A DNA stretch of 64,000 nucleotides from Bacilli bacterium (lineage in GTDB: Bacteria > Bacillota_I > Bacilli_A > RF39 > UBA660): the NCBI GenBank assembly GCA_017409785.1, contig JAFQSD010000004.1, positions 48,663 to 112,662 of the forward strand. Reading direction: 5' to 3'. Positions 16,251 through 29,639 of the stretch are shown piece after piece; the stretch's first letter is position 1; each line of letters begins with the position of its first letter. A program made the position numbers and the translations under genes. The notes beneath the pieces were generated by a model that searched no databases, was not told where the DNA came from, and saw only the letters and a list, made by a program, of their open reading frames with translations.

Positions 16251-17489
16251 ATGGAATTTTTTGAATTAACAGAAAAAGAATATCAAAACTACTGGGAAAA
16301 TCATCCATTAAAAACTTTTCTATCTTCTATAGAAATAGGTAAACTAAGACAAAAAAGAAACTGGAATGTTAATTATGTAGGAATAAAAGAAAATAATAAT
16401 ATATATGGCGCAGCCATGCTTTTAAGTAAGAAAAAACATCTTAACAAATACGAATTCTATAGTCCTAGAGGATTCTTAATAGACTATAATAATAAAGAAT
16501 TATTAGACTTCTTTACCAAAGAAATTATTAAATATATAAAAAATAAAAATGGCTATATATTAAGAATAGACCCATATATCATTAATAAAGAAAGAGATAT
16601 AAATGGAGATATAGTTGAAAATGGACAAGACAATAAAATGATTATAGAACACCTAAATAACTTAGGTTTTAATAAAATTAAAACATCCAAGAACGAACAA
16701 GTATCATGGATGTTTTCATTAGATTTAGCTGGTAAAACAGAAGAACAAATTTTAAATGAAATGAAACCAAATACTAGAAATATAATAAAAAAAGTAGAGA
16801 AAAATGGCATTCGAATAAAAGAACTAGAATTTAATGAATTACCAGTATTTAGTGATATTCTAAATAAAACAGCAAAAAGAAAAGATTTTCATCCACGAAG
16901 TATAGAATATTATGAAGATATGTATAATCTTTTTCATCATAAAAATGAAGTTAAGTATTATATAACTGAATTAAATATAAATGAATATGTCGAAATACTA
17001 ACCAAAGATCTAGCAGAAAAACAAGAAAAACTAAAATCTAAAAATATGAAAAAAACTAGAAGAGAAGAATTAGAAAAAGATATCCAAACAATAGAAAGAA
17101 AAATAAAAGAAGCAAAAGATATAAAAGATAAAACAAAAAGTGATATAATAACTTTATCAGGATCTATGTTTATGTTCATTAAACCAGAAATAGTATACTT
17201 ATCAAGTGGTAACTATGAAGAATACTTAAAGTTTAATTCACAGTATCTCTTACAATGGGAAGTAATAAAGTATGGATTAAACAATGGTTATAAAAAACAT
17301 AACTTTTATGGTATCCCAGAAAATATAAATAACCATCCTGATAATTATGGTATTTATGAATTTAAAAAGGGTTTTAATGGATATGTTGAGGAATTAATAG
17401 GAGAGTATGAACTACCAATTACAAATTACTATTACTTACATAAATTATTCCAAAAGCTCAAGGAGGTAAAATATGCATTACACTTATAA
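16251..17489 (+). CDS. FemAB-family aminoacyltransferase (peptidoglycan interpeptide bridge formation)
   Basis: About 410 aa. The N-terminal region resembles FemX/FemA (..TFLSS..WNVNYVGIKENNNIYGAAMLL..), with a central charged coiled-coil insertion as in FemA/FemB. Confidence 0.65.
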   Translation: MEFFELTEKEYQNYWENHPLKTFLSSIEIGKLRQKRNWNVNYVGIKENNNIYGAAMLLSKKKHLNKYEFYSPRGFLIDYNNKELLDFFTKEIIKYIKNKNGYILRIDPYIINKERDINGDIVENGQDNKMIIEHLNNLGFNKIKTSKNEQVSWMFSLDLAGKTEEQILNEMKPNTRNIIKKVEKNGIRIKELEFNELPVFSDILNKTAKRKDFHPRSIEYYEDMYNLFHHKNEVKYYITELNINEYVEILTKDLAEKQEKLKSKNMKKTRREELEKDIQTIERKIKEAKDIKDKTKSDIITLSGSMFMFIKPEIVYLSSGNYEEYLKFNSQYLLQWEVIKYGLNNGYKKHNFYGIPENINNHPDNYGIYEFKKGFNGYVEELIGEYELPITNYYYLHKLFQKLKEVKYALHL

Positions 17490-17721
17490 AACAAAAGGAA
17501 CATGTTCTACACAAATTGATTTCGATATCAAGGATAATAAAATATATAATGTTGAATACACAAGAGGTTGTAATGGGAATCTAAAAGCAATTGCTTCACT
17601 AGTAGAAGGACAAGAAGTAGATGAAGTAATAAAAAAATTAAGTGGTATTACTTGTGGATTTAAAAATACATCTTGTGGTGATCAACTAGCAAAAGCACTA
17701 GAAGAAATAAAAGTAAAATAG
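17473..17721 (+). CDS. TSCPD-domain small protein (TIGR03905-like)
   Basis: 82 aa with motifs TRGCNGNLKA and KNTSCGDQLA. It overlaps the end of the FemAB gene. Confidence 0.55.
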   Translation: MHYTYKTKGTCSTQIDFDIKDNKIYNVEYTRGCNGNLKAIASLVEGQEVDEVIKKLSGITCGFKNTSCGDQLAKALEEIKVK

Positions 17722-17724
17722 TAC

Positions 17725-17752
17725 TTTACACACCACAAATATATGTTATAAT
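17725..17752 (+). promoter_or_regulatory. candidate promoter, TTTACA-16-TGtTATAAT
   Basis: Seen directly; located 4 nt after the upstream stop codon. Confidence 0.35.
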
Positions 17753-17758
17753 GAATTC

Positions 17759-17877
17759 ATCAACGGACTTACCATATGCTGATGAATAGACAATTTGGAC
17801 GATAATTTATATTTTTAGGTAAGAAAAATATATCTATTCGGGAATACTTTGCGAAAGCAAGGTATTCCCTTTTTTTT
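17759..17877 (+). ncRNA. candidate small RNA (about 120 nt) between promoter and terminator
   Basis: Promoter at 17725-17752, an internal hairpin tcatca..tgatga, and a strong terminator. It has no ORF with an RBS. Confidence 0.25.
17840..17877 (+). terminator. strong rho-independent terminator (13-bp stem, GAAA tetraloop, T8)
   Basis: gggaatactttgc GAAA gcaaggtattccc tttttttt. Confidence 0.75.
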
Positions 17878-17965
17878 GTCCCTAAAGGAGGTGTTATCAA
17901 AATAAATATTTAATTAAAACAAAAAAACAATAAACAAAAATAAAAAAAAGGAAGGAGAAAGAAAT

Positions 17966-18901
17966 ATGAAAAATGAAATAATAATATTTGAAGATCAAAA
18001 TGTAAAATTAGAAGTAAATATGAAAGATGAGACAGTATGGTTAAACCAAGAACAAATTAGCATACTTTTTGGTAAGGCAAAATCAACTATAAATGAACAT
18101 ATAAAAAATATTTATAGTGAAGGAGAATTGATAGAAGAAGAAACGTTAAGTAAATTCGGAAATTCCGAATTAAGCACTAAACCAACAAATTATTACAATT
18201 TAGATGTAATTATAAGTGTAGGCTATAGAGTAAAGTCACAACGAGGAATCGCATTTAGAAAATGGGCAACAAAAGTATTAAAAGATTACATGATGAAAGG
18301 ATATGCAGTAAATAAACAACGACTTGAGTATCTAGAAAAAACAGTTAAATTAATAGATATTGCCAATAGAATGGATGATAGGCTAGAAAGTAATGAAGCT
18401 AAAGAAATACTAAGAGTAATTGGTACTTATTCTAAAGCCCTTAATGTCTTAGATGATTATGATCATCGTACTTTACAAAAGTTAAAAGGGAAAAATAGTA
18501 ATCTAAGAATAGAATATAATGAATGTTTAGAGGTAATAAACAAATTACGTTTTAACGAAGAAAGTGATTTATTTGCCTTAGAAAAAAATAAAGGACTTGA
18601 ATCTATAATCAACAATATTTATCAAACTTTTGGTGGACAAGAAGTATATCCATCCATAGAGGAAAAAGCTGCTAATTTTATTTATATGATAGTAAAAAAC
18701 CATGTTTTTATTGATGGAAATAAACGTATAGCAGCAACACTATTTATATATTTTCTACAATTCTATAACATACTTTATATAAATGAAAAACAAGTCATTG
18801 ATAATAATACATTAGTTGCTTTAACACTTTTAATAGCAGAATCAAATCCAAAAGAAAAAGATATAATAGTTGATTTAATAATGAACTTCCTTACAAATTA
18901 A
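17966..18901 (+). CDS. RhuM-family protein with C-terminal Doc/Fic domain
   Basis: The N-terminal region matches the RhuM virulence-protein family. The C-terminal region carries the Doc-type motif HVFIDGNKR. Confidence 0.6.
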   Translation: MKNEIIIFEDQNVKLEVNMKDETVWLNQEQISILFGKAKSTINEHIKNIYSEGELIEEETLSKFGNSELSTKPTNYYNLDVIISVGYRVKSQRGIAFRKWATKVLKDYMMKGYAVNKQRLEYLEKTVKLIDIANRMDDRLESNEAKEILRVIGTYSKALNVLDDYDHRTLQKLKGKNSNLRIEYNECLEVINKLRFNEESDLFALEKNKGLESIINNIYQTFGGQEVYPSIEEKAANFIYMIVKNHVFIDGNKRIAATLFIYFLQFYNILYINEKQVIDNNTLVALTLLIAESNPKEKDIIVDLIMNFLTN

Positions 18902-22513: not shown

Positions 22514-23704
22514 ATGAAGAAAAAAATAATAATAATTGTCATAATTACATTAGTATTAATTTCCATGATTATAGGTGGTATTTTCTTCTATAATAAATGG
22601 AGAATAGCTAATGCTAAAATATTAGTGGAACTAAATGATAACCTACAAGTTGAAGTATATAGTGAAAGTAAATTATCTGACTTTATAAAATCAATAAATG
22701 GTAAGATTCAAGATGATTTTACTATTAATACTGAAAAGGTAGGGAAGAAACCAATTAATTTTAAATATATAAATGATGATAATATAGAAGTTTCATATTC
22801 ATTTGAAATAGAAGTTGTTGATACAAAAGCTCCATATATTTTCTCTTCAAGTTCATTGTCAGTAACAAAAGGTTATTCTGGAAACTTAGCTGAAGAACTA
22901 TTTTGTGGTGATAATTATGATGATGTACCAGTCTGTGAAATTACGGGAACATATAATGCTAATGTGCCAGGAACATACCCTCTAACATTTACAGGAAAAG
23001 ATTCATCTGGAAATGTTTCAACAACTAATTTTAATTTGATTGTAAAAGAAAAGTCATCAACAACAGCTTCTTCAACATATCAAAACTTTTCCGATATAGT
23101 TGCCAAACATAAAACTGAAAATACTAAGATAGGTTTAGATGTATCTAAATGGCAAGGAGACATAAACTTCCAACAAGTAAAAGACGCTGGAGTAGAATTT
23201 GTTTTTATAAGAATTGGAACTCAAAAAGGAATTGGTGGAGAATATGTTATTGATCCAAAATTTGAACAAAATATAAAAGGATTCCAAAGTGTTGGAATCC
23301 CTGTTGGAGTATATTTTTATACTTATGCTAATAGTAATAAAGCATCACTTGCTGATGCTAAATGGGTTATAGAAAACTTAAAACCATACAAGATAGAATT
23401 ACCAGTAGTATTTGACTGGGAAAACTGGTCTTTCTATCAAGAATTTGATAAAAGTTTCTATAACCTAACACAAATGGCTAATACATTTCTAAGTACTATA
23501 GAAAAAGCAGGCTATAAAGCCATGCTATACAGTAGTAAAAATTATCTAGAAAATGTCTGGTTTGAAACAAACTATCCAGTATGGCTAGCTCATTATACAG
23601 AAAAAACTACATATCAAGGAAAATATGATGTATGGCAATTATGTAGTAATGGAAGAGTTCCAGGAATAAAAGGAAACGTTGATATAAATGTTATGTATAA
23701 TTAA
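22514..23704 (+). CDS. membrane-anchored GH25 muramidase (lysozyme/autolysin)
   Basis: N-terminal TM helix and a C-terminal GH25 signature, GLDVSKWQGDINFQQVK..VEFVFIRIG. Confidence 0.7.
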   Translation: MKKKIIIIVIITLVLISMIIGGIFFYNKWRIANAKILVELNDNLQVEVYSESKLSDFIKSINGKIQDDFTINTEKVGKKPINFKYINDDNIEVSYSFEIEVVDTKAPYIFSSSSLSVTKGYSGNLAEELFCGDNYDDVPVCEITGTYNANVPGTYPLTFTGKDSSGNVSTTNFNLIVKEKSSTTASSTYQNFSDIVAKHKTENTKIGLDVSKWQGDINFQQVKDAGVEFVFIRIGTQKGIGGEYVIDPKFEQNIKGFQSVGIPVGVYFYTYANSNKASLADAKWVIENLKPYKIELPVVFDWENWSFYQEFDKSFYNLTQMANTFLSTIEKAGYKAMLYSSKNYLENVWFETNYPVWLAHYTEKTTYQGKYDVWQLCSNGRVPGIKGNVDINVMYN

Positions 23705-24433: not shown

Positions 24434-24844
24434 GTGGTGATTATAATGAAAGTAATAACTGTAAAGCAACCATTCGCAACACTTATAGCAGAAGGTCTAA
24501 AAGAATATGAATTTAGAACATGGAGAACTAAATTTAGAGGTGATATTTTAATACATGCCGGTAAGGGAATAGATAAAAAGGCTATGGAAAGATATAAACA
24601 TTTAAATTTAGATTATCCATCAGGAAAAATAATAGCAAAAGCAACTATCACAGACTGTGTTTATGTAGATGATAATTTAAAAGAAGAATTACAAGAAAAA
24701 GATCCATTAGTATATTATGGTATACTTCAAAAAGATAGTGATTGGGATGGTTATGGATTTAAATTAGAAAACATAGAAAAGATAGAACCAATAGAAATAA
24801 ATGGAAAACTAAGTCTATGGGACTATGATTATAAAGACGAGTAA
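24434..24844 (+). CDS. ASCH-domain protein
   Basis: KVITVKQPFATLIAEGLKEYEFRTWRTKFRGDILIHAG is a typical ASCH/PUA-like N-terminus. Confidence 0.55.
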   Translation: MVIIMKVITVKQPFATLIAEGLKEYEFRTWRTKFRGDILIHAGKGIDKKAMERYKHLNLDYPSGKIIAKATITDCVYVDDNLKEELQEKDPLVYYGILQKDSDWDGYGFKLENIEKIEPIEINGKLSLWDYDYKDE

Positions 24845-24858
24845 TCGTCTTTTTTTTG
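24834..24858 (+). terminator. rho-independent terminator
   Basis: agacga gtaa tcgtct followed by a T8 run. Confidence 0.5.
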
Positions 24859-24879
24859 TAAACATAAATTGTGGAAAAC

Positions 24880-24906
24880 TTGACAAAGAGGTGGGGGGGG
24901 TACAAT
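24880..24906 (+). promoter_or_regulatory. promoter TTGACA-15-TACAAT with a G8 homopolymer in the spacer
   Basis: TTGACA at 24880-24885, G8 at 24893-24900 and TACAAT at 24901-24906, about 25 nt upstream of ATG 24932. Confidence 0.45.
24893..24900 (+). repeat. poly-G (G8) homopolymeric tract
   Basis: Seen directly. It is exceptional in a roughly 70% A+T sequence. Confidence 0.9.
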
Positions 24907-24931
24907 TTTACTAGAATAGGAGTTGCAGAAA

Positions 24932-25615
24932 ATGGAAAAATCAAGAAAAACTAAAGTTTTATTAATTATTGCATTAGTATTAGCAATAACAGGAATGTCT
25001 TTAGGATTTGCAGCTTTCTCATCAACTTTAACTATCTCATCAAGTGCGACTGTAACACCTAATAGTGATGATTTTAACCTTACGATATATGGTATTAGTG
25101 ATTATGTGGCTTGGGGAGATTTTCTAAATAGTTTAGACTTTTCACTTCTTTCTACTACAATATCTTCTCCAACACTTAACCCTACATCATCGTCGGCCGA
25201 AACAACTGCTACAACAGCAATTATAAATAATGATACAATGACATTATCAAATATAAGTGTAACATTCTCAAAGCCAAGTATAGAAACAGCTAATTATTAT
25301 TTTGTACTAAAAAACACAGGAAAATATACTGCATATATGAATTTAAATGAAAGTGAAATAGGAGAATTATGTACATGGGAAGAAAATACAACGGAAAGTT
25401 TAGCAGAACAAGCATGTAATTCTATATATTGGAATATATATACCATAGATAATCAGGGAAATCAAATAGAATTCGGCACAAGTCCAATATTACCAAATGA
25501 TTGGCAAATGCTATTGATTGAATTCAAATATCCAGAGGGTTCAGTCTTACCAGATGGAAATATTAAATATGAAGTAAGAGAATTAAAACTCCCATATACG
25601 ACAACACCACAATAA
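24932..25615 (+). CDS. secreted protein with SipW-cognate-like (TasA/camelysin-type) signal peptide
   Basis: N-terminus K-rich, hydrophobic, then G-SLGFAAFSSTLTISSSATV, compared with the TasA/CalY G-GT-AAF-D class. It has a paralogue at 27505. Confidence 0.45.
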   Translation: MEKSRKTKVLLIIALVLAITGMSLGFAAFSSTLTISSSATVTPNSDDFNLTIYGISDYVAWGDFLNSLDFSLLSTTISSPTLNPTSSSAETTATTAIINNDTMTLSNISVTFSKPSIETANYYFVLKNTGKYTAYMNLNESEIGELCTWEENTTESLAEQACNSIYWNIYTIDNQGNQIEFGTSPILPNDWQMLLIEFKYPEGSVLPDGNIKYEVRELKLPYTTTPQ

Positions 25616-25640
25616 AAACACCAATTAGGTGTTTTTATTT
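25616..25640. terminator. bidirectional rho-independent terminator
   Basis: aaaacacc aatta ggtgtttt, flanked by A-runs and T-runs; it sits between convergent genes. Confidence 0.55.
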
Positions 25641-26074
25641 TATAAAAATTCTTTAATTTCTTCTACGTATTCTTCTTGCATATCTACATATTCTTTCATG
25701 ATTTCTTTTACATTAGGATCTTCATCTTTTTGATTAATAAGTCTTCTTCCTTCAATAATTCCCATATTTAATCCCTGAAGTAACATCTCTGCAAGTTTTG
25801 AATCACTTCCATCATTCATAGTTCGCATTTGAATACCAGACCATGTCATAACTTTATTCATCGCATTTGTTTCATGAGGATCATCATCACTATATTTATC
25901 ATATACTTTATTAATTCTTTCTTCTAAGTCCTCATATTCTTCTAGTAAATCTTCACAAACTTTTTTAAATTTTTTATCTTCAATTTTTTCTAAGATAAAT
26001 TTAACTGCATCACTTCCCATACAACAACCTTTATTTAATTCATCTAAAATATCAATATTATTTTCTTCTTTCAT
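25640..26074 (-). CDS. small acidic cytoplasmic protein, function unknown
   Basis: The start was moved to the second ATG, where the GGAGGG RBS is correctly spaced. Confidence 0.4.
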   Translation of the reverse strand: MKEENNIDILDELNKGCCMGSDAVKFILEKIEDKKFKKVCEDLLEEYEDLEERINKVYDKYSDDDPHETNAMNKVMTWSGIQMRTMNDGSDSKLAEMLLQGLNMGIIEGRRLINQKDEDPNVKEIMKEYVDMQEEYVEEIKEFL

Positions 26075-26179
26075 AATTCCCTCCATTTATAGTATTTACA
26101 CAATTTACAAAAAAATACATTTATAAAATATTAAAAAAAAACAATTATGATATACTTAAGTAAAGTAGAGGAGAAGACT

Positions 26180-26638
26180 ATGAAAAAGAAAATATTACTA
26201 GTTTTATTATTAATTGGAACATTATTTATAACAGGATGTACTGCGAAAGAAAAATTAGAACCAAATAATTTTAAAAAAATTATGGAGAAAAAAGAATTTG
26301 TTGTAGTAGATAACACAGGAATTGCTTTATCTGAAATTGGAAATGTTGAATTAAGCTATACCGCATCTCCGCAAGACCAACGATATACAATTGAATATTA
26401 TTCATTTGATGGAGAAGTATCTGCCCAAGGATTCTATGCTAAGAAACAAGCTGAATTAGGTTCAACAGGTTCACAAGTATATACAGAACTAAATCTTGGA
26501 AATTATTCAAAATATACAATGATTTATAATGGAAAATTCACTGCTATATCACGTGTTTCTAACACAGCTGTCTATGTAACAGCCGACAAAATATATGAAG
26601 AAGAAATAAAACAATTATTATTGGATATTGGTTACTAA
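26180..26638 (+). CDS. lipoprotein
   Basis: MKKKILLVLLLIGTLFITGC: signal peptide plus an LITGC lipobox. The start was trimmed to the ATG after RBS gaggag. Confidence 0.6.
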   Translation: MKKKILLVLLLIGTLFITGCTAKEKLEPNNFKKIMEKKEFVVVDNTGIALSEIGNVELSYTASPQDQRYTIEYYSFDGEVSAQGFYAKKQAELGSTGSQVYTELNLGNYSKYTMIYNGKFTAISRVSNTAVYVTADKIYEEEIKQLLLDIGY

Positions 26639-26700
26639 AAAGACTCAACTTGACAAATGTATAAAATACGCATATCATATTAACGAATGGAGTTGATATT

Positions 26701-27375
26701 ATGGAATTAACTAATCCTTTATATAAAAATATGGGAGCACACGTTGTTGATACTATTTTTACAATTGATAAAGGTAGAATTAAAGTCCTTTTAATTAAAA
26801 GAAATAACGAACCATATAGAGGAAGTTGGGCTTTAGTAAGTGGAGCTATGTATAATAATGAACTTATTGAAACTGCAGCTTTACGTGAATTAAAAGAAAA
26901 AACAAATATCTCAGATATTGAATTAACTTTTATAGGGGTAGATGATGATACTGATAGATCACCACTATTAAGAATGTTTGCTTTTATTCATATCGGTCTT
27001 GTTGATTTTCAAAATATAAAATTTTTAAAAGAAACAGAAAAAACAATGGATGCAGATTGGTTTGACATTAATGATATTCCAGAACTTGCTTATGACCACA
27101 ATAAGATTTTAGATTATGCTATTGAAAAATTAAAAACAATGATTAATTCATCAAATATTTTAAAAAGAATTTATCCTAATGGATTTACAATCCCAGAAAT
27201 TCATAAAGTTTATGAATCAACATTAGGAGTAGAAATAGATAGACGTAACTTTAGAAAAAAACTTCTAACTCAAAAAATAATTCTTGATACAAATGAAACA
27301 ATAACTTTTGAAGGTAAGAAGCCAGCCAAAAAATATATATTTAATGATGAATTACCAGATAAAAAATTATTCTAG
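26701..27375 (+). CDS. NUDIX hydrolase with C-terminal extension (possibly NrtR-like)
   Basis: Nudix box GAMYNNELIETAALRELKEKTNI, plus an additional roughly 80-aa C-terminal domain. Confidence 0.65.
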   Translation: MELTNPLYKNMGAHVVDTIFTIDKGRIKVLLIKRNNEPYRGSWALVSGAMYNNELIETAALRELKEKTNISDIELTFIGVDDDTDRSPLLRMFAFIHIGLVDFQNIKFLKETEKTMDADWFDINDIPELAYDHNKILDYAIEKLKTMINSSNILKRIYPNGFTIPEIHKVYESTLGVEIDRRNFRKKLLTQKIILDTNETITFEGKKPAKKYIFNDELPDKKLF

Positions 27376-27405
27376 AGAAGAACTTAAATTGTTCTTCTTT
27401 TTTTG
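27376..27405 (+). terminator. rho-independent terminator
   Basis: gagaagaac ttaaatt gttcttc followed by a T8 run. Confidence 0.55.
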
Positions 27406-27449
27406 ACAAAAACTAATATTAAAATAATGTAAAGTAAGACTAAGGAAAG

Positions 27450-27478
27450 TTGAAAAAAAACGTATAGAAAGGTACAAT
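27450..27478 (+). promoter_or_regulatory. promoter TTGAAA-17-TACAAT (A8 in the spacer)
   Basis: Seen directly. It is homologous to the 24880 promoter but has poly-A instead of poly-G. Confidence 0.35.
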
Positions 27479-27504
27479 TATATTATAGAATTGGGGAAAT
27501 TAAT

Positions 27505-28371
27505 ATGGAAAGAAATAGACAAACAAAAATGATTACCATTATTGCATTAGTGATAGCCGTAGCAGGAATGTCTTTAGGATTTGCAGCATTTTCATCAACA
27601 TTAACTATTTCATCAAGTGCAACAGTTGCACCAGATAGTTCAAACTTTAAAGTTGGATTTTATGCCAGCACAACGTCTACTTTAGCAAGTGAAGCTCAAG
27701 ATCATGTTTATCCAAGTACAAATGGAAGTGCTAGTGCTACTTCACTATATATATCAGAAGGAACTACATCAATTTCTGGATTAAAAGCCAACTTTACCGC
27801 ACCGGGAGAATCAGTTACTTATAGTTTTTATGTTGGGAATAGTGGAGAGTATGATGCTTATTTAAGAGCAATTAACTTTAATAATGTAACTGGAGCAAGT
27901 TCAAATAAAGTTTGTACTGCTGGAACAGATGCAACTGATTCTTTAGTACAAGCTGCATGTAATGATATTTCAATTAGTGTAAATGTTCATGATATAACAG
28001 CAACATCTACAAGTTCCAGTATATCAGGTAAAGTATTATACAAAAAAACATTTGCACCAATTACAATAACTATTGAATATGCTGCAAATGGAAATAGAGC
28101 AGATGGACCATTCTCAGTATCTTTTGGAGATATTTCTATAGATTATAGTACTATTGACAATAATGTAAATACAATAACCTTTACAATTAACGATGAAATA
28201 TATTACGCCGAACAAGGAATGACTCATCTGGATTGGTTTGAAAGTTCATATAATACGTTGTATGATGATATAACAATATTGTTCTGTGATGGTGAAAATA
28301 AAATAATTAATGAAACCGATGTTCTTATAAATAACGAAGAATATTATCTTGGTGATTCATACTGCATTTAA
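27505..28371 (+). CDS. secreted protein with SipW-cognate-like signal peptide (paralogue of 24932)
   Basis: Its N-terminus MERNRQTKMITIIALVIAVAGMSLGFAAFSSTLTISSSATV is almost identical to that of the 24932 protein. The mature parts diverge. Confidence 0.45.
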   Translation: MERNRQTKMITIIALVIAVAGMSLGFAAFSSTLTISSSATVAPDSSNFKVGFYASTTSTLASEAQDHVYPSTNGSASATSLYISEGTTSISGLKANFTAPGESVTYSFYVGNSGEYDAYLRAINFNNVTGASSNKVCTAGTDATDSLVQAACNDISISVNVHDITATSTSSSISGKVLYKKTFAPITITIEYAANGNRADGPFSVSFGDISIDYSTIDNNVNTITFTINDEIYYAEQGMTHLDWFESSYNTLYDDITILFCDGENKIINETDVLINNEEYYLGDSYCI

Positions 28372-28388
28372 AATAAAAAGAATGCTAA

Positions 28389-29639
28389 CTAAGCATTCTT
28401 TTTATTTTGTATAATTGTTACTGTACTATGTGATAGATCTAAAGACTTAATAGTCTCAACAAAATCCTCATAACTAAATTCTTCTATATCACTAACTGTA
28501 TCAGGATATGGATAATTAAACTCTACTATATTACTTACAAAAGGCATAACAGTATCTACTAAATTTTCACTACGAAGTACAATCTTTAAAATAGTATCTT
28601 TTTTATCAATTTCAAATATCTCTTCATTAAAAGTATTAAGTTTCAAACAAGTATCCTTTATACGTTTTTCTAATTCTTTAGAATTATTACTATAAGATCC
28701 AATTGATATTAAAACAAAGCCATCAATCATAAAGTCACTACAAGAAAGAGTAGTAGTAATTATTTTATCTTCAACTAAACTCTTATAAAGTGGAGAAGTC
28801 ATTCCAAAACACATATCAAAGAAATAGTGTAAATAGAAATCTAATTTTAATCTTTCCTTAACAGTAAATTTACTTAGATTAACTTTATAAGTAACTTCAG
28901 TGTAATCTTCTCCAGTAGGAAACTCTAAAATATCTCTTTCTTTAATTACTTCATCTTTTTCATTAACTTGTATTAATTTCATATCACAACTTTTAATATC
29001 TAATTCATTGTAAATATTTTCTATAAGTTTTAACACTTTATCTTTATCAAAACTTCCTGCGATTACAATAAACTGATTACTAGGTTGATAAAATGCTTTA
29101 TAACAAGTCATAACATCTTCTAAAGTAGTATTAGAAACTTCTTCTAATGTTCCCCCAATACTTCTAACTTTAATATTTTCTAAACAGTTATTTAATGTCA
29201 TTTGATTAGAATGATAAAATTTATTATCCATACGTCCTTTTATTTCTTGAAGAATTGGTTTCTTAATTTTTTCTAATCTTTCTTCGTTAAATACAGGAGC
29301 ATAGATTCCTCTAATCATTGTTTCAATTCCAAATTCAACGTCTTCGATTGCTTCAAAATAATACTTGGTCATATTGTAATAAGTTGAAGCATTTGTTGCC
29401 ATTTGTTTTTCTCCAAGTAATTTTAAAAAGTTACCTCTTGCATTTTCTTCAACAATATAATGTTCTAGTATATGAGCAACACCATCTTGTATATGATATT
29501 CTTTACCATCTAATAAAAAATCTTTTGTCTTACCACCAAATAAAGTTACATGTTGAAATAAAGTAGAGTGTCTTCTTTTATCAGAGTACAAATAAATAGT
29601 TAATCCATTATCTAATTTAATAGTTTCTATATTATTCAT
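28389..29639 (-). CDS. M16-family zinc peptidase (catalytic subunit, HxxEH)
   Basis: HILEH inverted zinc-binding motif. The start was set at MNNIETIKLDNGL, which overlaps the upstream stop (ATGAATAA). Confidence 0.7.
   Translation of the reverse strand: MNNIETIKLDNGLTIYLYSDKRRHSTLFQHVTLFGGKTKDFLLDGKEYHIQDGVAHILEHYIVEENARGNFLKLLGEKQMATNASTYYNMTKYYFEAIEDVEFGIETMIRGIYAPVFNEERLEKIKKPILQEIKGRMDNKFYHSNQMTLNNCLENIKVRSIGGTLEEVSNTTLEDVMTCYKAFYQPSNQFIVIAGSFDKDKVLKLIENIYNELDIKSCDMKLIQVNEKDEVIKERDILEFPTGEDYTEVTYKVNLSKFTVKERLKLDFYLHYFFDMCFGMTSPLYKSLVEDKIITTTLSCSDFMIDGFVLISIGSYSNNSKELEKRIKDTCLKLNTFNEEIFEIDKKDTILKIVLRSENLVDTVMPFVSNIVEFNYPYPDTVSDIEEFSYEDFVETIKSLDLSHSTVTIIQNKKNA

What the first reader, a model, noticed from the sequence alone, without database searches (positions are those of the whole stretch)
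24932..28371. Two paralogous secreted proteins with TasA/camelysin-like (SipW-cognate-like) signal peptides, but no sipW in the window
Seen: the two ORFs share an almost identical N-terminus (K/R-rich n-region, hydrophobic core, then G-SLGFAAFSSTLTISSSATV) and then diverge. They flank a small block (acidic protein on the - strand, lipoprotein, NUDIX hydrolase), and an M16 peptidase pair follows. Established: TasA/CalY-type matrix proteins carry a distinctive signal peptide (..GGGT-x-A-x-F-S/N-D..) cleaved by the dedicated signal peptidase SipW. Inference: these are matrix or fibre subunits or surface antigens processed by a SipW-like peptidase encoded elsewhere. Duplication plus divergent mature domains, and a poly-G promoter on one copy, fit antigenic or phase variation.
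Basis: partly seen in the sequence, partly recalled or inferred. Interest (0 to 1): 0.5.

Follow-up and report, generated by a model that had tools for sequence, protein, structure and literature searches.

The report
Phase-variable TasA-like fibre subunit paralogs
Two related secreted proteins of an uncultured gut bacterium belong to a large unnamed family that is genetically tied to a dedicated SipW-type signal peptidase and probably builds TasA-like surface fibres, and one copy sits behind a poly-G promoter whose length differs between strains, so it is probably switched on and off.

Summary
ORFs A (24932-25615) and B (27505-28371) are paralogs: 31% identical overall, with residues 21-41 identical. 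There is no signal peptidase in the window.

Neither N-terminus hits TIGR04088 or Peptidase_M73, while a TasA control does. hhalign against a TasA family profile gives 3% probability.

The underlying idea is largely right:
- In 48 of 80 related genome loci, a family member lies beside a signal peptidase I of the archaeal/SipW type. It is fused to about 9 membrane helices and followed by a DUF5305 protein, and often by a 500-590 aa paralog.
- This gene module was recently described for AbpX-type members of the TasA superfamily.
- The window's own MAG carries the module about 60 genes away (IJE53_06525 to 06535), next to a third paralog.
- After the predicted GFA|AF cleavage site comes a near-invariant 14-residue amphipathic strand. 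This fits a donor strand.

The G8 tract lies in A's promoter spacer. It is G8, G9 or G10 in different assemblies. Such tracts are strongly enriched upstream of family genes in other genomes (P about 1e-36).

Verdict: a new, phase-variable variant of a known kind. Fibre formation itself is inferred, not shown.

The parts
24833..24852 (+). Terminator-like hairpin ending the upstream ASCH-domain gene. It isolates gene A as its own transcription unit.
   Evidence: Terminator scan.
24880..24906 (+). Promoter of A: TTGACA (24880-24885), a 15-nt spacer, then TACAAT (24901-24906). The spacer is 15 nt here, outside the 16-18 nt range the scan accepts. I predict this is a low or OFF state.
   Evidence: Sequence. 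Not reported by the 16-18 nt promoter scan. The same promoter has a 16-nt spacer in L003 and a 17-nt spacer in L088-L092.
24893..24900 (+). Poly-G tract (G8) inside the promoter spacer; the putative slipped-strand phase-variation switch.
   Evidence: It is the only G/C run of 6 or more in the window. The length is G8, G9 or G10 in different assemblies with identical flanks. Homologous tracts lie upstream of family genes in other genomes.
24932..25012 (+). Gene A, predicted signal peptide (residues 1-27): basic n-region MEKSRKTK, hydrophobic core, c-region G-F-A.
   Evidence: Across 275 family members, position -3 is G in 100% and position -1 is A in 98%. There is a single hydrophobic segment at residues 9-27. 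Cleavage is inferred, not shown.
25013..25060 (+). Gene A, near-invariant amphipathic segment AFSSTLTISSSATVTP (mature residues 1-16); the putative donor strand.
   Evidence: Even positions F2, L6, I8, S10, A12, V14 and P16 are 97-100% conserved, while odd positions 7, 13 and 15 vary. The segment is unstructured with low pLDDT in the monomer model.
25061..25615 (+). Gene A, variable beta-sandwich domain with two conserved Cys (mature C120 and C135); acidic, pI about 4.05.
   Evidence: AF2 pLDDT 92. Composition. It is a hypervariable island relative to the syntenic locus L008.
27450..27478 (+). Promoter of B: TTGAAA, 17-nt spacer, TACAAT. There is no homopolymer tract.
27505..27585 (+). Gene B, predicted signal peptide (residues 1-27, ..AGMSLGFA).
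27586..27633 (+). Gene B, conserved amphipathic segment AFSSTLTISSSATVAP; the putative donor strand.
27634..28371 (+). Gene B, beta-sandwich core homologous to the 216-217 aa operon-type subunits, plus a C-terminal extension of about 70 aa with two extra Cys. The whole CDS (27491-28374) is cleanly absent in some strains.
   Evidence: Deletion shown.
28369..28409 (+). Terminator-like hairpin after B, shared with the convergent M16 peptidase gene.

Best explanation
A and B are two of at least three paralogous exported subunits of a fibre or matrix system of the TasA-superfamily type. The gene module most resembles the recently described AbpX loci.

Proposed mechanism, with each step marked shown or inferred:
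1. Each precursor is exported by Sec through a 27-residue signal peptide (inferred from sequence).
2. It is cut at G-F-A|A-F by a dedicated signal peptidase I of the archaeal/SipW type that carries about 9 extra membrane helices and works with a DUF5305 partner. Shown: this peptidase exists in the same MAG about 60 genes upstream, next to a third paralog C, and is adjacent to family members in most related genomes. Inferred: that it is the enzyme that cuts A and B, and that this is the cleavage site.
3. Cleavage exposes a near-invariant 14-residue amphipathic strand, AFSxTLxISSSAxV, with an aromatic residue at position 2. This strand inserts into the beta-sandwich of a neighbouring subunit (donor-strand complementation). 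Because the strand is shared, paralogs with very different globular domains could use the same assembly route (inferred).
4. Transcription of A is switched by slipped-strand changes in a poly-G tract that sets the -35/-10 spacing. G8 gives 15 nt in this window, G9 gives 16 nt and G10 gives 17 nt. Shown: tract length varies between assemblies and is strongly associated with family promoters. Inferred: the effect on expression. B has a fixed 17-nt promoter but is present or absent between strains.
For: Family and conservation:
- There are 540 hits and 817 clusters at 50% identity, all unnamed.
- The first 48 residues or so are near-invariant while the rest averages 22% column identity.

Peptidase linkage:
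- 48 of 80 GTDB loci have the fused peptidase on the same strand, mostly directly downstream.
- The peptidase scores 89 bits on TIGR02228 (cutoff 51.9) and 62 bits on the SipW model NF046067 (below cutoff). The next gene is DUF5305 (54.6 bits). A 500-590 aa paralog often follows.

Same genome:
- P0332 (MBQ2910446.1, 'signal peptidase I') is flanked by IJE53_06525 (paralog C) and IJE53_06535 (DUF5305).
- A is IJE53_06825 and B is IJE53_06845. All are on a 218,435-bp contig.

Literature:
- AbpX loci combine the subunit, a 10-TM SPase I, DUF5305 and minor or tip subunits. [quoted passage not shown]
- The TasA donor strand is residues 28-38, immediately after SipW cleavage (PMC9674648).
- TafD processes TafA, and TafG is a DUF5305 protein (PMC11821415).
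- Here, mature A and B have pI 4.05, two Cys 15 residues apart and F at position 2. The peptidase has about 9 hydrophobic segments before the catalytic domain, and the DUF5305 protein has two.

Fold:
- The AF2 models are confident (pLDDT 92).

Phase variation:
- The tract is G8, G9 or G10 with identical flanks.
- 17 of 22 G/C runs of 7 or more in 1.31 Mb lie 32-86 nt upstream of family genes, inside TTGAC..-10 promoters (binomial P about 2e-36).
- Seven of ten tandem copies in L069 carry G9.
Against: - There is no sequence-level link to TasA: no TIGR04088 or M73 hit while the TasA control hits, and hhalign gives 3%.
- The profile search of PDB sequences finds nothing relevant. Foldseek against the PDB finds nothing at E<0.001.
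- Mature position 4 is N/S/T/A, not the acidic residue conserved in TasA and AbpX.
- The full-length AF2 model draws residues 2-37 as one helix. The mature-only model leaves the N-terminus unassigned rather than docked.
- No oligomer prediction could be run. Cleavage, polymerisation and ON/OFF switching are all untested.
- Tract lengths come from assembly consensus, not from reads.
- A second small-x-small site (S-S-A| after mature residue 12) cannot be excluded.
Confidence: 0.55

Rival explanations
1. Export, dedicated cleavage and phase variation are as in the best explanation, but the proteins act as monomeric secreted or surface-associated antigens or adhesins. They do not polymerise. The conserved N-terminal block would then be only a recognition element for the dedicated peptidase, or a cell-surface retention tag.
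For: The peptidase linkage and phase variation do not by themselves require fibres. Fold matches are weak and include many carbohydrate-binding modules. The monomer model does not show a docked strand.
Confidence: 0.2
2. The N-terminus is an uncleaved signal-anchor. A and B would then be type II membrane proteins displaying a variable ectodomain, with the conserved GFAAFS..ISSSA block being a juxtamembrane stalk.
For: The hydrophobic stretch is long, about 19-21 residues. AF2 models residues 2-37 as one continuous helix. The organism is related to genomes labelled Mollicutes or Mycoplasma, where membrane-anchored variable antigens are common (the comparison is from my own knowledge).
Against: The conserved adjacency to a signal peptidase argues for processing. 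Invariant G at -3 and A at -1 fit a cleavage site. pLDDT drops to 64 over residues 31-40, so the helix is not confident there. AF2 draws signal peptides as helices in general (my own knowledge).
Confidence: 0.1
3. One reading: A and B are bona fide TasA/camelysin (Peptidase_M73) family proteins carrying the TIGR04088 SipW-cognate signal peptide.
For: The local motif is similar: aromatic-A-A-F-S/N-S/D. A SipW-type peptidase is in the genome. hhalign's only aligned stretch pairs ISN..P..Y.F.IKN.G with TasA's LSNLKPGD...F.L.N.G.
Confidence: 0.03
4. A and B are type IV pilin-like or pseudopilin subunits, with an N-terminal hydrophobic helix retained in the mature protein and cleaved by a prepilin peptidase.
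For: The AF2 full-length model has a 'lollipop' shape, with a long N-terminal helix plus a beta domain. There was a weak chance hit to T2SS protein J (E 0.23).
Against: There is no G|F/M prepilin cleavage motif and no E at +5; the leader ends ..RKTK|VLL. The family is linked to signal peptidase I, not to an A24 prepilin peptidase. The helix is not confident beyond residue 30.
Confidence: 0.02

Closest known systems
AbpX-type loci of the TasA superfamily (bioRxiv 10.64898/2026.01.04.697558)
   Same: The gene module matches: a small subunit of about 217 aa, a dedicated SPase I with many extra TM helices (10 reported; about 9 hydrophobic segments here), a DUF5305 accessory protein, and larger minor or tip-like paralogs. 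The subunits also share an aromatic residue at mature position 2 of an amphipathic N-terminal strand, two Cys, and an acidic pI of about 4.
   Different: Mature position 4 is not acidic, so calcium-gated complementation is not indicated. No sequence or structure comparison with AbpX itself was possible. A and B are detached from the module. The family is expanded to at least 16 copies in some genomes and sits behind poly-G promoters. It is found in host-associated small-genome Bacilli rather than thermophilic archaea, Clostridia or Chloroflexota.
Bacillus subtilis tapA-sipW-tasA (TasA, Peptidase_M73; SipW; TIGR04088 signal)
   Same: There is a dedicated ER/archaeal-type SPase I next to fibre subunit genes. 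The aromatic-A|A-F cleavage context is similar. The segment right after cleavage is the donor strand in TasA (residues 28-38, PMC9674648). A second, larger protein shares the N-terminal strand, as TapA does.
   Different: There is no TIGR04088 or PF12389 match and hhalign gives 3%. The peptidase is fused to a polytopic domain of about 250 aa and is paired with DUF5305, which the Bacillus operon lacks. Regulation is by a homopolymer tract rather than SinR.
Archaeal donor-strand filaments: Saci_0406 threads (7pnb), AbpA bundling pili (7ueg), tafi TafA/TafD/TafG (PMC11821415)
Promoter-spacer homopolymer phase variation (for example Mycoplasma hyorhinis vlp poly-A; other contingency loci); named from my own knowledge
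   Same: A homopolymer lies between -35 and -10, so that gain or loss of one base changes the spacing. It serves multi-copy, tandemly arrayed surface protein genes with conserved 5' ends and hypervariable mature regions.
   Different: The tract is poly-G in a genome of about 27% GC. The proteins are not lipoproteins, and they belong to a peptidase-linked fibre-type family. No switching has been measured.

Membership tests
SipW-cognate signal peptide class (TIGR04088) | Match to the TIGR04088 HMM (cutoff 19 bits) | tested here: not met
   There is no hit at E<=10 for full-length A and B or for their first 60 residues. The TasA control scores 38 bits in the same search.
SipW-cognate signal peptide class (TIGR04088) | Genomic association with a SipW/archaeal-type signal peptidase I | tested here: met
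   48 of 80 related loci carry a TIGR02228-type peptidase beside a family gene. The same MAG has one next to paralog C.
TasA/camelysin family (Pfam Peptidase_M73, PF12389) | Match of the mature domain to PF12389 or NF046066 | tested here: not met
   There is no Pfam or NCBIfam hit. hhalign of the family profile against a 62-sequence TasA/CalY profile gives probability 3%.
TasA superfamily (structure-defined: TasA, AbpA, AbpX, threads, CanA, tafi) | Jelly-roll or beta-sandwich core resembling known members | tested here: inconclusive
TasA superfamily (structure-defined: TasA, AbpA, AbpX, threads, CanA, tafi) | N-terminal amphipathic donor strand directly after signal cleavage, with an aromatic residue at position 2 | tested here: met
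   With cleavage at GFA|A, F2 is 100% conserved and L6, I8, A12 and V14 are 98-99% conserved at even positions. The cleavage site itself is predicted, not measured.
TasA superfamily (structure-defined: TasA, AbpA, AbpX, threads, CanA, tafi) | Polymerisation by donor-strand complementation | not testable with these tools
   Only single-chain prediction was available. In the mature monomer model the first 22 residues are unassigned, with pLDDT 60-75.
AbpX-type module | Dedicated SPase I with about 10 TM helices, plus a DUF5305 accessory gene, in the locus | tested here: met
   Shown in L042 and L084: TIGR02228 89 bits, about 9 hydrophobic segments before the catalytic domain, and PF17231 54.6 bits. 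This holds for paralog C and for relatives. A and B themselves lie about 60 genes away.
AbpX-type module | Acidic residue at donor-strand position 4 (calcium site) | tested here: not met
   Position 4 is N 31%, S 25%, T 25% and A 13%.
AbpX-type module | Sequence or structural homology to AbpX itself | not tested
Simple-sequence contingency (phase-variable) locus | Hypermutable repeat placed where a length change alters expression | tested here: met
   G8 lies in the -35/-10 spacer and gives 15 nt. Other assemblies give 16 and 17 nt.
Simple-sequence contingency (phase-variable) locus | Repeat length polymorphism among otherwise identical sequences | tested here: met
   G8 in the window, L001 and L002; G9 in L003; G10 in L088-L092. 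Flanks are identical and the proteins are at least 90% identical.
Simple-sequence contingency (phase-variable) locus | Reversible ON/OFF switching within a population | not testable with these tools
   This needs read-level data or reporter assays.
Type IV pilin / pseudopilin | Class III signal (G|F/M.., E+5) and linkage to a prepilin peptidase | tested here: not met
   The motif is absent in all N-termini listed. The neighbouring peptidase is S26, not A24.

The most novel reading that the evidence does not exclude
The family is a set of interchangeable, individually phase-variable major subunits. All carry one universal donor strand, so the cell can change or mix the exposed globular domain of a donor-strand fibre without changing the assembly machinery. 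This would be antigenic variation by subunit switching, run by poly-G contingency promoters in uncultured, small-genome gut Bacilli. It would be a fibre-level analogue of Mycoplasma Vlp/Vsa or neisserial pilin variation, built on a TasA-like scaffold.
Probability: 0.3. Interest if true: 0.8.

Novelty: new variant of a known kind. Interest (0 to 1): 0.62.

Why it matters
The organisms are uncultured gut Bacilli. Their records are labelled Bacilli bacterium, Mycoplasma sp. CAG:877, uncultured Mollicutes and Ca. Faecisoma, and come from human, goat, deer, rabbit and chicken samples. Almost nothing is known about their surfaces.

The work has three consequences:
- It gives a name and a testable mechanism to a large, entirely unannotated family: more than 800 clusters at 50% identity, with up to 16 or more copies per genome.
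- It links that family to the emerging cross-domain module of dedicated SPase I plus DUF5305 for TasA-like matrix fibres.
- It suggests the fibres' composition is under stochastic ON/OFF control, which would bear on host immune evasion, phage receptor variation and biofilm formation in the gut.

It also provides a practical rule. Poly-G tracts in TTGAC..-10 spacers flag variable surface genes in these low-GC genomes.

Tried and rejected
- Pfam and NCBIfam scans of A, B and their N-termini gave no informative hit.
- PDB sequence search with the family profile returned only chance kinase hits.
- Foldseek against the PDB gave nothing below E 0.006.
- hhalign against a TasA/CalY profile gave probability 3%.
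- The window was searched for any S26 peptidase, the fused membrane domain or the whole fusion, by motif and by home-made HMMs. Nothing was found.
- The mature-only AF2 model was run to see whether the N-terminal strand self-complements. It stays unassigned, so this gives no support either way.
- The afdb50 fold library was not available.
- The type IV pilin reading was rejected: no class III motif, and the wrong peptidase family.
- A functional link with the intervening acidic protein, lipoprotein and NrtR genes and the M16 pair was considered. They are conserved syntenic housekeeping-type genes, are not found beside family members elsewhere, and the M16 genes are on the opposite strand. I treat them as bystanders.
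- Literature search for RF39 plus phase variation found nothing relevant.


Full report
**1. The observation**

The window is low-GC DNA, about 27%. It comes from a MAG deposited as 'Bacilli bacterium': B is 100% identical to MBQ2910509.1, locus tag IJE53_06845.

- ORF A (24932-25615, 227 aa) and ORF B (27505-28371, 288 aa) are present as described.
- They align over about 230 residues at 31% identity, E 2e-31. They are full-length paralogs whose first 48 residues are far more alike than the rest, with residues 21-41 identical.
- No third copy lies in the window.
- The genes between them are an acidic protein on the minus strand, a lipoprotein and a NUDIX protein. The NUDIX protein is an NrtR-type regulator. 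The M16 pair downstream is also confirmed.
- There is no S26 signal peptidase in the 64 kb.
- The poly-G tract is G8 at 24893-24900, the only G/C run of 6 or more in the window. It lies between TTGACA and TACAAT and gives a 15-nt spacer. B has TTGAAA-17-TACAAT with no tract.

**2.

- Neither protein, nor its first 60 residues, matches TIGR04088, TIGR04087/89/90 or Pfam Peptidase_M73 at E<=10.
- B. subtilis TasA, run as a positive control, hits TIGR04088 at 38 bits and NF046066 at 509 bits.
- A profile of 109 family members compared with a profile of 62 TasA/CalY proteins gives hhalign probability 3%.
- A and B therefore cannot be filed as TasA/camelysin family members.

**3. What the family is**

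- Homology searches give 540 hits in the 90% database and 817 clusters at 50% identity. All are unnamed and without Pfam domains.
- The N-terminus is almost invariant across this very diverse set: a basic n-region, a hydrophobic core, then G-[ML]-[ST]-[LIV]-G-F-A-A-F-S-x-T-L-x-I-S-S-S-A-x-V-x-P.
- The globular part averages 22% column identity. It keeps an N-x-G-x-Y-x-A-Y motif and two Cys.
- Genome hits are all host-associated MAGs labelled Bacilli bacterium, Mycoplasma sp. CAG:877, uncultured Mollicutes or Ca. Faecisoma.
- Some genomes carry many copies, for example at least 16 in RGIG8711 and in Lapin-030__bin25. These include tandem arrays of 3, 4 and 10 genes.

**4. The peptidase link**

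- In 48 of 80 genome loci, a family member lies next to a protein of about 375 aa, usually immediately upstream of it on the same strand.
- The C-terminal 110 residues or so of that protein are a signal peptidase I of the archaeal/ER (SipW) type. It scores 89 bits on TIGR02228 (cutoff 51.9) and 62 bits on the SipW model NF046067 (below cutoff). It has the GSMxP, HR and GDxN motifs.
- Its first 265 residues or so contain about nine hydrophobic segments.
- The next gene is a two-TM DUF5305 protein (PF17231, 54.6 bits). A 500-590 aa protein with a related N-terminus (VGFSAFQNKL..) often follows.
- Most loci without the peptidase come from the multi-copy genomes, where a given locus is one of many.

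**5. The window's own genome**

- A profile search with the fused peptidase returned P0332, 'signal peptidase I [Bacilli bacterium]', with the same contig fingerprint as B.
- Its neighbourhood (L084) is: a 216-aa family member C, then the peptidase, then DUF5305, then a serine recombinase.
- Exact look-up gives C = IJE53_06525 (MBQ2910445.1), the peptidase = MBQ2910446.1, DUF5305 = IJE53_06535, A = IJE53_06825 and B = IJE53_06845. All sit on a 218,435-bp contig.
- The module is therefore in the same MAG, about 60 genes from A and outside the window (no DNA overlap).
- B is 52% identical to C; A is 31-32% identical to both.

**6. Comparison with the literature**

- A 2026 preprint on AbpX defines a TasA superfamily comprising TasA, AbpA, AbpX, tafi, Saci_0406 threads and CanA.
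- It reports that abpX loci in archaea and bacteria encode the subunit, a dedicated SPase I with ten TM helices, a DUF5305 accessory protein, and minor and tip subunits.
- In Haloarcula, the peptidase TafD was shown to process TafA, and TafG is a DUF5305 protein.
- In TasA the donor strand is residues 28-38, the first residues after SipW cleavage.

**7. Fit of A and B to that picture**

- With cleavage at G(-3)-F-A(-1)|A-F (G 100%, A 98%), the mature protein starts A-F-S.
- Even positions F2, L6, I8, S10, A12 and V14 are 97-100% conserved. Odd positions 7, 13 and 15 vary. This is the signature of a beta-strand with one buried face.
- The TasA family consensus at the same place is G-T-W-A|A-F-N-D.
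- Mature A and B have pI 4.05, 25% Ser+Thr, and two Cys 15 residues apart.
- Position 4 is not acidic.

**8. Structure**

- AF2 models are confident (pLDDT 92.5 and 92.0): a beta-sandwich with two short helices.
- In the full-length model the signal peptide and the conserved block form one helix, with low confidence after residue 30. In the mature-only model the first 22 residues are unassigned.
- Foldseek against the PDB is non-significant.
- The fold evidence is suggestive only.

**9. Phase variation**

- The same promoter carries different tract lengths in different assemblies, with identical flanks and proteins at least 90% identical.

| Assemblies | Tract | Spacer |
|---|---|---|
| window, L001, L002 | G8 | 15 nt |
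| L003 | G9 | 16 nt |
| L088-L092 | G10 | 17 nt |

- Other strains have an interrupted tract (GAGGGGGG or GAGGAGGG) or none.
- Across 1.31 Mb of related loci there are 22 G/C runs of 7 or more. Seventeen lie 32-86 nt upstream of a family gene, on its strand, inside TTGAC[ACT]...TAnAAT/TATTAT promoters with spacers of 14-19 nt. The binomial P is about 2e-36.
- These come from three further species-level genomes: RGIG1688, RGIG8711 and Lapin-030__bin25.
- Three more such promoters precede other secreted-protein genes.
- The promoter scan, which accepts 16-18 nt spacers, finds B's promoter but not A's G8 version.
- I infer that A is in a low or OFF state in this window and ON in the G10 strains. 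This is untested.

**10. Signs of diversifying evolution**

- Against the syntenic locus of RGIG8711 (L008), the flanking DNA is 81-86% identical.
- The promoter, leader and signal/strand region of A is 93-98% identical.
- The mature part of A falls to about 45-60% identity and is not aligned by BLASTN.
- B varies between strains: 100%, 83% and 74% identical versions exist. Its CDS (27491-28374) is cleanly missing in the G10 strains, leaving the promoter behind.

**11. Conclusion**

A and B are detached, diversified copies of the subunit gene of a fibre module of the type 'dedicated SPase I plus DUF5305'.

| Claim | Status |
|---|---|
| Paralogy of A and B | shown |
| Family conservation pattern | shown |
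| Peptidase linkage, and its presence in the same MAG | shown |
| Tract polymorphism and enrichment | shown |
| Cleavage site | inferred |
| Donor-strand polymerisation | inferred |
| ON/OFF switching | inferred |

I rate it a new variant of a known kind, of above-average interest.

Noticed in passing
window 27491-28374 (compare L088/L089 5561-5579): The whole CDS of B is cleanly absent in strains whose A promoter has G10. The flanks align at 96-99% and B's promoter is left behind. B is thus a presence/absence polymorphism, and it is also much more variable between strains (100%, 83% and 74% identity) than A.
   Followed up: partly
L004:1891-1900, L007:20429-20439, L049:9451-9458: The same TTGACA-Gn-TA(C/A)AAT promoter design (G8 to G11) precedes genes for other secreted proteins with ordinary signal peptides. 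In these genomes, poly-G promoter switching therefore seems to be a general device for surface or secreted proteins, not restricted to this family.
   Followed up: partly
L014:4271-4278 and the downstream ORF: A G8 run precedes a gene whose product starts MNNKKQLLLSIGLVLILVLMIVGISYAAFKFTGTGQKANTITTGA... This is a different protein with a YAAF motif after its hydrophobic core, possibly another substrate class of the same peptidase. It has no NCBIfam hit.
   Followed up: partly
L084:12572-13516 (same MAG as the window, outside it): In the window's genome a serine recombinase gene follows DUF5305, at the position where relatives have the 500-590 aa family paralog. WXG100 genes and two C39-like peptidase genes lie downstream, and a TED/SpaA-domain protein lies further on. 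This may reflect a rearrangement of the module.
   Followed up: no
L069:3445-11403: There is a tandem array of ten family genes (213-232 aa) in one rabbit-gut MAG. Seven of them lie behind near-identical TTGACC-G9 promoters. The layout looks like a classic variable-antigen array.
   Followed up: partly
window 24800-25060 compared with L008: The promoter, 5' UTR and signal/strand-coding part of A are more conserved between species (93-98%) than the surrounding housekeeping DNA (81-86%). The mature part is essentially unalignable. This points to gene conversion of the 5' module or cassette replacement of the 3' part.
   Followed up: partly
window 26701-27375: The 'NUDIX hydrolase' between A and B is an NrtR-type regulator: a NUDIX domain plus an NrtR winged-helix domain (PF21906, 57 bits). 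It is probably an NAD-metabolism regulator unrelated to the finding.
   Followed up: partly
window 16251-18901: The neighbourhood includes a FemAB-family gene, a small TSCPD-domain ORF and a RhuM/Fic-domain gene, plus a GH25 muramidase with an N-terminal TM segment at 22514-23704. The FemAB and GH25 genes suggest that the organism makes peptidoglycan, despite the 'Mollicutes' labels on related MAGs.
   Followed up: no
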